Shown piece after piece: positions 48,596 to 51,499 of a DNA stretch of 64,000 nucleotides (position 1 is the first letter of the stretch; every line of letters starts with the position of its first letter). Under the pieces are notes generated by a model that saw nothing but the letters and a program-made list of their open reading frames with translations, was not told the DNA's origin and ran no database searches. The DNA comes from a virus. Lineage: Duplodnaviria; Caudoviricetes. The stretch is taken from positions 128,001 to 192,000 of IMG/VR virus record IMGVR_UViG_3300042010_000129; one strand, given 5' to 3'. A program made the position numbers and the translations under genes.

Positions 48596-48843
48596 GTGCT
48601 TTTCCTTGTACCTTTACGAAGTGGTTTCCGTTCCGGTTCCCACCGCTCTGTGATTTGTTCGCAGCACCGGGCAATTTGACCATCGGTGACGCCGGGGTTT
48701 TGCTCGCGCAGTTCCGTCCTGATAAATTTACCGGACGATTTAGGATACTGCCGCGTGAGGTTCACGATGCCTCGAATGATATCGAAATCATCGTACAAAT
48801 ATTCAGGCTCGAAATCTTCTTGAACAACCTTTGGTTTTTTCAT
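48592..48843 (-). CDS. hypothetical protein
   Basis: GAGGAAGTGTAAGATG leader. Confidence 0.6.
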   Translation of the reverse strand: MKKPKVVQEDFEPEYLYDDFDIIRGIVNLTRQYPKSSGKFIRTELREQNPGVTDGQIARCCEQITERWEPERKPLRKGTRKST

Positions 48844-48856
48844 CTTACACTTCCTC

Positions 48857-48883
48857 AAAAAGGGGAATCCCGTAGGACTCCCC
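48857..48883 (-). terminator. intrinsic terminator with UACG tetraloop
   Basis: GGGGAGTCC-TACG-GGATTCCCC-TTTTT. Confidence 0.85.
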
Positions 48884-48891
48884 CGACCAGA

Positions 48892-49497
48892 TTATTGCGC
48901 TGGCTTTTTGCTCATGTCGTACAGGCCTTGATCTTTGCCGGTTTCGAACGAAGTCGCGGTACGCTCGTTCATCAACGGCGCGTATTTGTCCGGGCCATCG
49001 TTACAACCGATTTCCAGTTTGGCGGCGCCAGTAATACCGATCACGATATTATTCGGGAACACCGAACGATAGGTACACGCAGCGGTTTTGCGATCAGTCA
49101 TCATCTTTTCTTCGTGCGTGTACTTGTCACGACCTTGGTCGATCAGGTTCACGATTTTCATCGCCAGTTCTTGCGAAGCCGGGATATTGTTTTCACGCAG
49201 GAAAAGCACAGTCGCTTTCATACCTTCGGCACCGGAACGCAACTTGATTTGTTCGTTCACAGTTTTGCGGATGTTTTCGACGTTCATGTCTTGCACGCCG
49301 ATGGCTTCTTGCACCTTCTGGCTCAGGTTCGACAGAACGGCCTGACGGCTTTTGTTCGCACCGACGATACCGGCTTCCTGACGCACGACCGTGTTATTGA
49401 TGCTGACGACCCACAGGCCCAACGCAATAACGAGGCCGATAGCTACCATAGCGCCGACCGAGATAAAACCGCCTTGTTTCGATTTCATTATTTCCAT
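48892..49497 (-). CDS. LemA-like membrane-anchored helical protein
   Basis: N-terminal TM followed by SINNTVVRQEAGI...QAVLSNL..KV.E, the LemA architecture. Confidence 0.55.
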   Translation of the reverse strand: MEIMKSKQGGFISVGAMVAIGLVIALGLWVVSINNTVVRQEAGIVGANKSRQAVLSNLSQKVQEAIGVQDMNVENIRKTVNEQIKLRSGAEGMKATVLFLRENNIPASQELAMKIVNLIDQGRDKYTHEEKMMTDRKTAACTYRSVFPNNIVIGITGAAKLEIGCNDGPDKYAPLMNERTATSFETGKDQGLYDMSKKPAQ

Positions 49498-49502
49498 TTT
49501 CC

Positions 49503-49607
49503 TTAGTTGGTACAGCTTTTGAGGGCAAACAACGCAACACCGACAATCAGCACAACGATCAGAAGTTCGATCAGCGTGAAGCCCTTAGATTTCTTTGGAG
49601 ATTTCAT
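49503..49607 (-). CDS. 34-aa headless type IV prepilin-like peptide (class III signal peptide; not in ORF track)
   Basis: MKSPKKSKG/FTLIELLIVVLIVGVALFALKSCTN: basic leader, G-1, F+1, E+5 and hydrophobic helix. GGGA RBS; fills the gap between two genes. Confidence 0.85.
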   Translation of the reverse strand: MKSPKKSKGFTLIELLIVVLIVGVALFALKSCTN

Positions 49608-49618
49608 ATTGGTTCCCG

Positions 49619-50689
49619 TTAGAAAAAACCGAACTTGCGATGGCGCCGACCGTAGGCGTTACGTCTGTCCAGTATATAGTTTACAGTTAATGACGGGATC
49701 ACCACGATTGCCAGCAGCGACAACGCAATCAACCAATAAGGCGGATCGTATTCGTCTTTCAGGAAGTCGTAACGTCCGAGGTCTTCGCGTTGGAAATACT
49801 GAAACGCACTATCCAGCGATTCGATATATCGGGCTGTGTCGTAACGATTCAGCTTCACCGCGTTGACGTGCATCAGATTGGAAAAGTTGAAGCCTTGCGG
49901 ATCGGTCAGGTTATCAGCCGACCGGGTAAACGAATTCGCGTTGATAACCCGGCCTTCTTTGTCCAGACGCATGATCACCACAGCATCGTTTTTCTTGCCA
50001 CCTTTCCACTTGCTTTTCAGCGCGTAATAAAAACCTTTGAAGTCGGTTTCTTCACGCAATGCAATGACGATCACGTTGACGCCGTGCATCGGCCCCCAGC
50101 GCTTTTGTGCCACGTTCAACTGGCGCGACAATTCGCGTTGGTCAACTTGCGGCGTGTTGGAGAATCCGCGCTGCACTTTGAAGCCCGCGTAAACATGCGG
50201 ATATTCCGGCAACCAACCTTTGTACTCTTCAGCGGCTTCGCGGTCGATCATCACCGTTTGTTCGCTCACGTTCTGGAAATTCAGAAAGCGTTTGCTGGTG
50301 GTGAACGGATCGCCTATTTGCGTGTTGGTGTAAATCTCCGGCGCACGAATGGATTGATGCGTGTATTCGCTGAATTTGTCACCGTCGATATCCGACACAA
50401 CGTCCCAGCGCCAGCGTGGAATTTCGCGGGTGCAGGTTTTCGTGTGGCCTTGGGAGTCTTTGCCGCAATCGTAGCTTTCAGTTTCTGGATCATAAACACG
50501 TTTTTTCTCCGCGACAGAACCGCTCAACAATTGCAGGTCGGACGCCTGCCAATACATCGGCCCGTAGTACACTGCGCACGATACGACCACACCGACAACA
50601 AAGCACGCGCCCGACGCCAGCCAGTCATGTTCCCGGTGGTGCCAATAGGCCGCAACCAAAAGGGCTGCGAAGAGATACGCAAAAATCAT
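49619..50689 (-). CDS. membrane protein with TPM-like periplasmic domain
   Basis: Two N-terminal TMs and one C-terminal TM. GVNVIVIA...ALKSKW.GGKKNDAVVIM resembles the TPM (YgcG) core. Confidence 0.55.
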   Translation of the reverse strand: MIFAYLFAALLVAAYWHHREHDWLASGACFVVGVVVSCAVYYGPMYWQASDLQLLSGSVAEKKRVYDPETESYDCGKDSQGHTKTCTREIPRWRWDVVSDIDGDKFSEYTHQSIRAPEIYTNTQIGDPFTTSKRFLNFQNVSEQTVMIDREAAEEYKGWLPEYPHVYAGFKVQRGFSNTPQVDQRELSRQLNVAQKRWGPMHGVNVIVIALREETDFKGFYYALKSKWKGGKKNDAVVIMRLDKEGRVINANSFTRSADNLTDPQGFNFSNLMHVNAVKLNRYDTARYIESLDSAFQYFQREDLGRYDFLKDEYDPPYWLIALSLLAIVVIPSLTVNYILDRRNAYGRRHRKFGFF

Positions 50690-50964
50690 TGGTAAATCTC
50701 CAAATTCCTTTTGACTTCAGGCCACGCCATGATGCCCTTGGAAATGTCCTGATCATCGACAGGAACCAGATTGTATTTAAACCCGCCTGCCGCATCGCCG
50801 TAGCCGCAAATCAGATTGTCCGCGTAGTCGTGCGACCAGTACGGGGCAAACCCGGCGTCGTAGAGCGCGTAAGCAATGCAGATTTCATCCTCGAACGTGA
50901 CCAGACGTTTTTCGCCGTTGGGCATACGGTTTGGATCGAACGGCATGTATTTATCCATTTGCAT
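50686..50964 (-). CDS. hypothetical protein
   Basis: Start moved to MQMDKY. Confidence 0.55.
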   Translation of the reverse strand: MQMDKYMPFDPNRMPNGEKRLVTFEDEICIAYALYDAGFAPYWSHDYADNLICGYGDAAGGFKYNLVPVDDQDISKGIMAWPEVKRNLEIYQ

Positions 50965-51499
50965 TTGGCGCCCCCGGTTGACGGAAGTTTTCGTTGATCC
51001 AGCGCACGGTTTTGTAAATGTCTTTACGCCCAAGAAACTCGATGTAAAACCATTTGCCATTTGGTTCGTGCGCACCGCCCTGAAAGAACGGTGACGAATT
51101 TCGACGGATTTGATAACCGGGTTTGTCGATCCACGTAGTGAACAATTCACCCATCAGGAATTCATGCAATTCTGGCGTGGCGTGATGCTCCAGAACTTGA
51201 ATGCCGATATCGTAGCGCTGGCACATGGTCGGGAAGAAACGCGGCACGCCATCGACCACACGTTGGCTCATGGTGTAGCCGGTGCGCATGTGAGAGTGGA
51301 AACCAATCACCGGCAGATTGTCGTCCACGATTTTGTACGTGCCGATAACACGATCCAAGTCATGATCGAAAATTTCGCCGTTATCCTGATAGGAAAGCAC
51401 GTCAGTGAAATGCTCTCCGAAGCCGAGGCCCCGCAGCAAAGAAGTGCAGCGTTCGCGCAGGGTTTCGCCCACGATAAATTCGCTCGCATCAAACGTCAT
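50951..51499 (-). CDS. hypothetical phage protein
   Basis: Start moved to MTFDAS. Contains PFFQGG.HEP.G.WFYIEF. Confidence 0.6.
   Translation of the reverse strand: MTFDASEFIVGETLRERCTSLLRGLGFGEHFTDVLSYQDNGEIFDHDLDRVIGTYKIVDDNLPVIGFHSHMRTGYTMSQRVVDGVPRFFPTMCQRYDIGIQVLEHHATPELHEFLMGELFTTWIDKPGYQIRRNSSPFFQGGAHEPNGKWFYIEFLGRKDIYKTVRWINENFRQPGAPNANG

What the first reader, a model, noticed from the sequence alone, without database searches (positions are those of the whole stretch)
48857..50689. Headless 34-aa type IV prepilin inside a TPM-like / LemA-like membrane operon
Seen: an unannotated ORF at 49503..49607 reads MKSPKKSKG/FTLIELLIVVLIVGVALFALKSCTN. It has its own RBS and sits between a TPM-like membrane protein and a LemA-like protein, and the three genes end at a UACG intrinsic terminator. 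Established: G/F-x-x-x-E is the class III signal cleaved and N-methylated by prepilin peptidase (PilD). In P. aeruginosa, the pilin N-terminal helix, including E5, is sensed by PilS and represses pilA. Several phage proteins (Tip, Aqs1) disable type IV pili. Inference: after processing, this would be a 25-residue pilin helix with no head domain. It could cap or jam T4P/T2SS assembly, titrate PilD, or trick PilS into silencing pilA, blocking pilus-dependent competitor phages. The TPM-like and LemA-like partners may present it or buffer envelope stress.
Basis: partly seen in the sequence, partly recalled or inferred. Interest (0 to 1): 0.88.

Follow-up and report, generated by a model that had tools for sequence, protein, structure and literature searches.

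The report
Phage headless mini-pilin gene
A giant Pseudomonas-type phage from soil and plant samples carries a real, conserved 34-codon gene that encodes only the signal and membrane helix of a bacterial type IV pilin. It probably tampers with the host's pili; "pilin stubs" of this kind have been noted in print but never tested.

Summary
ORF 49503..49607(-) encodes a 34-aa class III (prepilin) signal plus a 25-residue helix. It scores above the curated cut-offs of Pfam N_methyl and TIGR02532.

It is a real gene. Eight distinct variants sit in the same slot, between the same two genes, in related roughly 280-312 kb phage genomes from metagenomes. All give a mature peptide of 25-26 residues. G-1, F1, T2, I4, E5, I8 and V9 are invariant, and dN/dS is 0.1-0.3.

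On the flank-protein tree the gene is ancestral to the Lu11-like clade and was lost at least four times, including in the only cultured relatives, Lu11 and HRDY3.

The flank labels hold at fold level only. The 356-aa protein has a TPM-like domain and the 198-aa protein is LemA-like. This pair occurs without any pilin in many large phages.

The profile of the eight variants resembles type IVa major pilins most closely. The function is untested. My best reading (about 0.4) is a PilD-processed mimic of the pilin membrane helix that lowers functional pili.

Truncated pilins of about 60 aa in virulent Pseudomonas phages were noted in print in 2026. This scan has also flagged 30-59-aa phage pilin stubs on other DNA. 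I class it as a new variant of a known, uncharacterised kind.

The parts
49503..49607 (-). Mini-prepilin gene, 34 codons plus stop. It has a 9-residue basic leader ending in Gly, then a mature 25-residue peptide starting F-T-L-I-E, a hydrophobic helix and the tail K-S-C-T-N.
   Evidence: above the Pfam and TIGR cut-offs. (syntenic copies). (dN/dS 0.1-0.3; 8 synonymous and 0 non-synonymous changes in G-1..V10 against L060). (invariant G-1, F1, T2, I4, E5, I8, V9).
49613..49617 (-). Shine-Dalgarno-like GGGAA, 6 nt upstream of the mini-pilin ATG.
   Evidence: Relatives use GGAGG (L073) or a start that overlaps the upstream stop (L078 TAATG, L060 TGATG, L080, L082 GTGA).
49619..50689 (-). Upstream gene, 356 aa (phrog_2087). 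It is an inner-membrane protein with two N-terminal TM helices, a beta-sandwich (residues 50-136), a TPM-like alpha/beta domain (about 150-300) and a C-terminal TM helix (318-343).
   Evidence: phrog_2087, E 1.4e-68. (model pLDDT 85.9). (2kw7 probability 1.0, TM 0.50; 3pvh 0.97; 8c7i; TPM-domain entries in AFDB). There is no Pfam TPM hit.
48892..49488 (-). Downstream gene, 198 aa (phrog_1383, annotated 'virion structural protein' in Lu11 and Ea35-70). It has an N-terminal TM helix and a LemA-like helical bundle.
   Evidence: (pLDDT 86.3). (top AFDB hit is a LemA family protein, TM 0.70/0.72, followed by many more LemA entries). (9 of 61 homologs hit Pfam LemA weakly, best E 8e-5). The window protein itself has no Pfam LemA hit.
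48857..48884 (-). Intrinsic-terminator-like hairpin (10-bp stem, UACG loop) followed by a U5 tract, 7 nt after the LemA-like stop codon.
   Evidence: centroid -19.4 kcal/mol, z -2.2. The simple consensus scan did not list it.

Best explanation
The ORF is an accessory gene of a Lu11-like jumbo phage, probably a Pseudomonas phage. It makes a prepilin that consists of nothing but the class III signal and the membrane helix (alpha1-N) of a type IVa major pilin.

Inferred steps:
1. The peptide inserts N-in into the inner membrane.
2. The host prepilin peptidase (PilD) removes the 5-9-residue leader and N-methylates Phe1. This leaves a 25-residue helix with Glu5 and a short periplasmic tail.
3. The peptide joins the membrane pool of pilins as a mimic of the part that the pilus machine handles. 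It competes with real pilin at the assembly platform or the filament base, and having no head it cannot support further growth.
4. Functional surface pili fall. This stops pilus-dependent phages, whether competitors or the phage's own progeny, from adsorbing to an already infected cell.

Shown here: the motif, the selection on it, and its conservation and repeated loss. Steps 1-4 are inferred.
For: - The motif scores above curated cut-offs.
- Eight variants lie in one slot. G-1, F1, T2, I4, E5, I8 and V9 are invariant, while the rest of the helix changes only between hydrophobic residues.
- dN/dS is 0.1-0.3. Against L060 there are 8 synonymous and 0 non-synonymous changes in G-1..V10. Selection therefore acts on the very residues that PilD and pilus assembly use, not merely on a membrane anchor.
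- The mature length is 25-26 residues in all eight variants.
- The profile of the eight matches the N-termini of type IVa major pilins best: Geobacter PilA-N, PilA, MshA, PAK pilin and PilE. The L082 variant carries the standard major-pilin string through residue 15.
- The gene is ancestral and was lost at least four times while its neighbours stayed. It is the only N_methyl ORF in a complete relative and is absent from whole genomes of Lu11, HRDY3 and one other. This is the pattern of a dispensable host-interaction gene.
- Precedents: a 17-residue N-terminal pilin peptide lowers pilus-phage susceptibility by 77% in Caulobacter (PMC7196804). Truncated PilA of about 60 aa in six virulent Pseudomonas phages was proposed to incorporate into, or inhibit, type IV pili (PMC12952977).
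Against: - There is no evidence of transcription, translation, processing or phenotype.
- The host is not identified, and neither is its pilus status.
- The gene never leaves the slot between two phage membrane proteins, and its start often overlaps the upstream stop. This could instead mean it works with them.
- It is not known whether a 25-residue helix can be extracted into a filament or can occupy the platform.
- A lytic phage may gain little from a slow loss of pili.
- No cultured phage carries the gene.
Confidence: 0.4

Rival explanations
1. Signal mimic. The processed helix is read by a membrane sensor kinase that monitors the pilin pool (PilS in Pseudomonas, as PleC does in Caulobacter). 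This falsely reports a full pool and shuts down pilin transcription or rewires surface-sensing outputs.
For: - In Caulobacter the 17-residue helix alone binds TM1 of PleC, impairs pili and lowers phiCbK susceptibility.
- Inner-membrane PilA levels control PilS-PilR output (PMC6058289).
- Invariant E5 and the conserved first 10 residues fit an intramembrane recognition code.
Against: - From my own recollection of Kilmury & Burrows 2016 (not held), Pro22 as well as Glu5 was needed for repression. No variant has Pro near position 22.
- Transcriptional shut-off is slow compared with an existing pilin pool.
- Nothing was tested here.
Confidence: 0.2
2. Phage-internal role. The peptide is a small accessory subunit of the inner-membrane module formed by the TPM-like and LemA-like proteins. 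The prepilin signal serves only to give it a defined topology or a processed N-terminus.
For: - It is always in the one slot between these two genes, in 8 lineages.
- Its start overlaps the TPM-like stop in four lineages.
- All three proteins are predicted membrane proteins.
- Scan notes report another phage mini-prepilin in front of a membrane scaffold protein (unchecked lead).
Against: - The pair is conserved without any mini-pilin in Lu11, the HRDY3 clade, L076/77, L083, distant jumbo phages, CBA120 and Ea35-70.
- It was lost four or more times.
- The slot also takes an unrelated small ORF (Lu11 gp350, and L080), so it behaves as an insertion hot spot.
- Invariance of G-F-T-x-I-E is not explained by a mere anchor.
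Confidence: 0.2
3. Peptidase decoy. A highly expressed minimal substrate or product occupies PilD, so that all prepilins and T2SS pseudopilins stay unprocessed. This blocks both pili and type II secretion.
For: - The leader, G-1, F1 and E5 are intact and invariant.
- It is the smallest possible substrate.
- NCBIfam also gives weak N-terminal matches to GspH and GspG.
Against: - PilD is an enzyme with turnover, so titration needs very high expression or slow product release.
- The strict mature length and the conserved polar tail are not needed for a decoy.
- The similarity is to major type IVa pilins rather than pseudopilins.
Confidence: 0.1
4. Relic. The ORF is a neutral leftover of a captured 5' end of a host pilin gene, with no function.
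For: - It is dispensable in several lineages.
- The L082 variant is almost identical to the standard pilin N-terminus.
Against: - dN/dS is 0.1-0.3 with saturated synonymous sites.
- Start context, reading frame and a stop after 25-26 mature residues are kept in 8 lineages whose flank proteins are only 36-45% identical to the window's.
Confidence: 0.05

Closest known systems
Truncated phage PilA-like proteins ('P-PilA', N-terminal ~60 residues) in six virulent Pseudomonas phages (Sztanko et al., Cell Rep 2026, PMC12952977, section 17)
   Same: Both are phage-encoded, on Pseudomonas-type phages, and keep the pilin N-terminus without the globular head. Both have a proposed role of incorporating into or inhibiting type IV pili to block phage adsorption. 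Neither has been tested.
   Different: This one is about half the size (31-35 aa precursor, 25-26 aa mature) and ends where alpha1-N ends. It belongs to a different phage group (Lu11-like jumbo phages) and sits in a fixed slot between a TPM-like and a LemA-like membrane protein. I could not retrieve the published sequences to compare them directly.
Prophage P-FimU minor pilins of F10-like P. aeruginosa phages (same paper)
   Same: A phage-encoded type IV pilin-family protein used in phage-versus-phage competition.
   Different: P-FimU is a full-length minor pilin that is built into a working pilus tip and masks the receptor. The present peptide has no head and cannot present a surface.
CIP peptide: the 17-residue N-terminal helix of mature Caulobacter PilA (Del Medico et al., PNAS 2020, PMC7196804)
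   Same: A pilin membrane helix alone is bioactive. It binds a sensor-kinase TM helix, impairs pili and lowers pilus-phage susceptibility.
   Different: CIP is a laboratory fragment of a host type IVc pilin, not a natural gene and not from a phage. Its target is PleC, which Pseudomonas does not use for this purpose.
Geobacter PilA-N ('Geopilin domain 1', 61-residue mature pilin) and other type IVa major pilins (PAK PilA, PilE, MshA)
   Same: These are the best sequence matches of the 8-variant profile among solved chains (E 6e-11 to 1e-6). The leader, G-1, F1 and E5 are the same.
   Different: Even the shortest of these keeps alpha1-C and forms filaments. Here the protein stops at residue 25-26.
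Phage inhibitors of type IV pili that are not pilins: Tip (D3112), Aqs1 (DMS3), PfsE (Pf4).
   Same: Small phage proteins that would have the same outcome: fewer working pili and superinfection exclusion.
   Different: They bind the motor PilB or the platform PilC as non-pilin proteins. No sequence relation is expected and none was tested here.
Bacterial LemA (PF04011) and TPM-domain (PF04536) membrane proteins
   Same: The two flanking phage proteins share these folds.
   Different: The window proteins have no direct Pfam match. The function of the phage pair is unknown. The cellular families are not known to include a pilin-like peptide.

Membership tests
Type IV prepilin / class III signal peptide (PF07963 N_methyl, TIGR02532) | HMM score above the curated cut-off | tested here: met
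   PF07963 scores 36.8 bits against 21.2. TIGR02532 scores 30.1 against 16.3.
Type IV prepilin / class III signal peptide (PF07963 N_methyl, TIGR02532) | Short basic leader ending in Gly(-1), Phe(+1), Glu(+5), then about 20 hydrophobic residues | tested here: met
   Read directly from the sequence. These positions are invariant in 8 variants.
Type IV prepilin / class III signal peptide (PF07963 N_methyl, TIGR02532) | Cleavage and N-methylation by a prepilin peptidase (PilD) | not testable with these tools
   Needs mass spectrometry or a gel shift in strains with and without pilD.
Type IV pilin proper (major or minor pilin, pseudopilin) | Alpha1-C plus a globular beta-sheet head after the membrane helix | tested here: not met
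   The ORF stops 25-26 residues after the cleavage site in all 8 variants. It is therefore not filed as a pilin, only as a prepilin-signal peptide.
Type IV pilin proper (major or minor pilin, pseudopilin) | Assembly into a filament by a T4P or T2SS machine | not testable with these tools
Phage-encoded truncated pilins (P-PilA stubs, PMC12952977) | Encoded by a phage, pilin N-terminus kept, head missing, conserved among related phages | tested here: met
   The flanks are PHROG families and the relatives are Lu11 and HRDY3. Eight syntenic variants were found.
Phage-encoded truncated pilins (P-PilA stubs, PMC12952977) | Sequence homology to the published ~60-residue family beyond the shared N-terminal motif | not tested
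   The paper's supplementary table is not held. A 34-aa tblastn query cannot reach significance in the phage collection.
TPM domain (PF04536), for the 356-aa flank | Pfam HMM match | tested here: not met
   No TPM hit at E up to 1.
TPM domain (PF04536), for the 356-aa flank | TPM alpha/beta fold | tested here: met
   The model has pLDDT 85.9. Foldseek gives 2kw7 at probability 1.0 and TM 0.50, 3pvh at 0.97, 8c7i at 0.85, and TPM-domain entries in AFDB for residues about 150-350. This is likeness at fold level only.
LemA (PF04011), for the 198-aa flank | Pfam HMM match | tested here: inconclusive
   The window protein has no hit. Nine of 61 homologs hit LemA weakly, best E 8.1e-5, all below a confident level.
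LemA (PF04011), for the 198-aa flank | N-terminal TM helix plus the LemA helical bundle | tested here: met
   The model has pLDDT 86.3. The top AFDB cluster hit is a LemA family protein at TM 0.70/0.72 and probability 1.0, followed by many further LemA entries. PDB 2etd ranks only third, with E about 1.

The most novel reading that the evidence does not exclude
A 25-residue, PilD-matured 'alpha1-N only' peptide is the smallest natural member of the pilin world. Giant Pseudomonas phages use it as a dominant-negative poison or false signal for the host's type IV pilus system. If so, a bare pilin membrane helix would be enough to control pili in nature, and such stubs would be a general phage tool for superinfection exclusion.
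Probability: 0.4. Interest if true: 0.75.

Novelty: new variant of a known kind. Interest (0 to 1): 0.55.

Why it matters
Type IV pili are major phage receptors and colonisation factors. If a natural 25-residue peptide can switch them off, it defines the minimal part of a pilin that the machine or its sensors recognise. It would also be a ready-made probe for PilD, the assembly platform and PilS-type sensing.

The repeated loss of the gene in sister phages offers natural plus and minus pairs for testing what the gene buys the phage. The idea of phage 'pilin stubs' is in print but has not been tested. This family is the shortest well-supported example I could document, and it has clear signs of selection.

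Tried and rejected
- A tblastn search of the 34-aa peptide against 50,697 phage records found no match at E up to 1. The query is too short to reach significance, so this is not evidence of absence.
- The search for homologous proteins and the search for related loci refuse queries this short. I used a degenerate DNA pattern and flank-protein look-ups instead.
- Complex prediction with the TPM-like protein, the LemA-like protein and the mini-pilin as partner gave 'no answer' (score 0.00). This is neither support nor evidence against binding.
- Expression could not be shown. No RNA run holds the stretch. The short pieces at 49551-49583 in wastewater RNA-labelled runs are generic pilin N-terminus DNA from other organisms.
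- Sequence searches of the flank proteins against PDB chains found nothing.
- Another first-stage note suggested a second prepilin-like leader on the LemA-like protein (M-K-S-K-Q-G-G/F-I-S-V). I rejected it. There is no N_methyl hit, no Glu5, and homologs have other residues there.
- The PF00589 hits in four related genomes lie in a 563-581-aa ORF. They fit the tyrosine-recombinase-fold topoisomerase described for Lu11 (PMC7824862), not an integrase. They say nothing on lifestyle.
- The PilS paper of Kilmury & Burrows 2016 is not held, and the supplement of PMC12952977 is not held.
- The ESM Atlas look-up gave only sub-threshold leads to clusters of short N_methyl peptides.
Full report
**What is there.** On the minus strand, 49503..49607 is a 34-codon ORF. 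It has a 9-residue basic leader ending in Gly. After that come Phe-Thr-Leu-Ile-Glu, a hydrophobic stretch and the polar tail Lys-Ser-Cys-Thr-Asn. It scores 36.8 bits on Pfam N_methyl (cut-off 21.2) and 30.1 on TIGR02532 (cut-off 16.3). It is the only such motif in the six frames of the window. A GGGAA element lies 6 nt before the start.

The upstream gene (49619..50689, 356 aa) belongs to phrog_2087. The downstream gene belongs to phrog_1383, annotated 'virion structural protein'. Homologs and public gene calls show that the downstream gene starts at 49488, giving 198 aa. A 10-bp hairpin with a UACG loop and a U5 tract follows it at 48857-48884.

**Where it comes from.** The stretch is about 72% identical in DNA to Pseudomonas phages Lu11 (280 kb) and HRDY3 (313 kb), and to nothing else in the phage collection. 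The flank proteins are 97% identical to those of a 311,690-bp metagenome contig. Runs that hold the stretch come from plant, rhizosphere, soil and food samples. No whole genome is held for the window. It is therefore an uncultured jumbo phage of the Lu11 group, and Pseudomonas is its likely host.

**Is the small ORF a gene?** Yes.
- The nearest named relatives first looked negative. Lu11 has an unrelated 61-aa ORF (gp350) in the slot. HRDY3 and two IMG/VR genomes have a gap of about 30 bp.
- A degenerate DNA pattern for the motif then hit a 312-kb IMG/VR phage. There, a 31-codon prepilin ORF lies exactly between homologs of the same two genes.
- Look-ups of homologs of both flank proteins in public assemblies found more copies. 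Gene callers had already called 33-35-aa ORFs with PF07963 in that slot in L069-L075, L078 and L080. Two uncalled copies are in L081 and L082.
- In all there are eight distinct sequences (alignment A4). G-1, F1, T2, I4, E5, I8 and V9 are invariant. The rest of the helix varies only among hydrophobic residues. Five of the eight tails carry Lys-(Ser/Gln)-Cys. Every mature peptide is 25 or 26 residues long.
- Pairwise dN/dS is 0.1-0.3 with near-saturated synonymous sites. Between the window and L060, the eleven codons G-1..V10 differ at 8 synonymous and 0 non-synonymous positions.
- In four lineages the start overlaps the stop of the upstream gene.

A neutral relic is therefore very unlikely.

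**Distribution.** On a tree of the two concatenated flank proteins, rooted with distant jumbo phages, the gene is present in all deep branches of the Lu11-like clade (L080, L081, L082, L060) and in the window's own group. It is missing from Lu11, the HRDY3 group of four, L083 and L076/L077. The tree needs five changes, and one gain followed by four losses is the simplest account (earlier version).
- Where it is missing there is a clean gap of 19-31 bp.
- In L080 the slot holds both the mini-pilin and a relative of Lu11 gp350, so the slot collects small accessory genes.
- Whole-genome searches found no other N_methyl ORF in Lu11, HRDY3 or one IMG/VR relative. In the complete L048 genome the mini-pilin is the only one.
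- The flank pair itself is far more widespread, with 430 phage records by tblastn. The two genes abut with no room for a peptide in distant jumbo phages, in CBA120 and in Ea35-70.

**The neighbours.** Neither has a Pfam match, but both fold with confidence.
- The 356-aa model (pLDDT 85.9) has two N-terminal membrane helices, a beta-sandwich, an alpha/beta domain and a C-terminal membrane helix. The alpha/beta domain matches TPM-domain structures: 2kw7 at probability 1.0 and TM 0.50, 3pvh, 8c7i, and TPM entries of AlphaFold DB.
- The 198-aa model (pLDDT 86.3) is a membrane helix plus a helical bundle. Its best AlphaFold DB cluster is a LemA family protein at TM 0.70/0.72, followed by many more LemA entries. 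Nine of 61 distant homologs touch Pfam LemA weakly.

**What it most likely does.** Selection falls on exactly the residues that define a prepilin peptidase substrate and that pilins use in assembly. It does not fall on generic hydrophobicity. The profile of the eight variants matches the N-termini of type IVa major pilins best among all solved chains: Geobacter PilA-N, PilA, MshA, PAK pilin and PilE.

I therefore think the peptide is processed by the host PilD and acts in the inner-membrane pilin pool as a headless mimic of the major pilin. My preferred mechanism is competition at the assembly platform or filament base, which lowers working pili and so blocks pilus-dependent adsorption (confidence 0.4).

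The rivals are:
- a false signal to a pilin-sensing kinase (0.2)
- a role as a small subunit of the TPM-like/LemA-like module (0.2)
- titration of PilD (0.1)
- a relic with no function (0.05)

Two papers give weight to the host-directed readings. In Caulobacter, a 17-residue N-terminal pilin peptide binds a membrane helix of the kinase PleC, impairs pili and lowers phiCbK susceptibility by 77% (PMC7196804). Sztanko et al. noted truncated PilA of about 60 residues in six virulent Pseudomonas phages and proposed incorporation or inhibition, without a test (PMC12952977).

For the phage-module rival, the fixed position and the overlapping start and stop codons count in favour. The repeated loss with the pair retained, and the wide occurrence of the pair without the peptide, count against. 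The complex prediction gave no answer and is not evidence either way.

**What is not shown.** There is no transcript, no protein, no processing and no phenotype. The host is inferred only from relatives and habitat. No cultured phage carries the gene, so tests need expression from a plasmid or a new isolate.

**Novelty.** Phage-encoded pilins (P-FimU) are established. Headless pilin stubs of about 60 aa have been mentioned in print. PHROGs holds small pilin-like families of unknown function. In my own pattern scan, 29 of the 49 complete pilin-like ORFs found in 51 viral contigs were under 90 residues; two further ORFs were cut off by contig ends. This scan has also flagged 30-59-aa phage stubs on other DNA (unchecked notes).

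This family is new in three respects. It is the extreme, 'alpha1-N only' form. It has a documented history of selection and loss in Lu11-like jumbo phages. It has a fixed place inside a LemA-like/TPM-like membrane gene pair. I class it as a new variant of a known but uncharacterised kind, with interest 0.55.

Noticed in passing
L001:3073-3258 (Lu11 gp350) and L080:about 2640-2840: The slot between the TPM-like and LemA-like genes also takes an unrelated small ORF of about 61 aa. It is alone in Lu11 and sits together with the mini-pilin in L080. The slot behaves as a hot spot for small accessory genes.
   Followed up: partly
window 48892-50689; L084 (CBA120 orf253/254), L085 (Ea35-70 gp045/046), L063-L065: The TPM-like plus LemA-like membrane gene pair is conserved and adjacent in very different large myoviruses (430 phage records by tblastn, including Ackermannviridae and several jumbo groups). 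Its function is unknown. The LemA-like member is annotated 'virion structural protein' in Lu11, HRDY3 and Ea35-70.
   Followed up: partly
L007:6772-6966, L019, L022, L023, L025, L041, L042, L045, L016 (IMG/VR contigs): A family of 63-67-aa pilin-like proteins with a prepilin N-terminus and a small Cys-containing tail recurs in many viral contigs. Among the 49 complete ORFs found in 51 viral contigs with the exact G-F-T-L-I-E-L-L-I-V motif, 29 are under 90 aa.
   Followed up: no
L021:8834-8965: A 43-aa prepilin-like ORF (GTG start) lies between a 113-aa ORF with an N-terminal membrane helix and an ORF with a lipobox-like M-A-G-C. This layout is reminiscent of spanin genes. L034:403-528 holds a 41-aa prepilin-like ORF in another phage.
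   Followed up: no
run X6 (also X15, X16), laid on window 48700-50900: Runs labelled with a single organism ('organism A', about 0.5 Gb each) hold a 176.6-kb contig that covers the whole stretch with 61 differences, mini-pilin included. They may be cultures that carry a close relative of this phage, and so a route to the host.
   Followed up: no
G001:C1:195880-196161, G002:C1:128685-128990, Lu11 155750-156052, HRDY3 106930-107232: All four related genomes have a 563-581-aa ORF with a weak tyrosine-recombinase (PF00589) match. This fits the phage-specific topoisomerase I described for Lu11 and PaBG rather than an integrase.
   Followed up: partly
window 50686-51150 (-) and further upstream: The ORF upstream of the TPM-like gene overlaps its start by 4 nt, and further co-directional ORFs follow. 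The terminator at 48857-48884 therefore closes a longer gene string than the three genes named in the finding.
   Followed up: no
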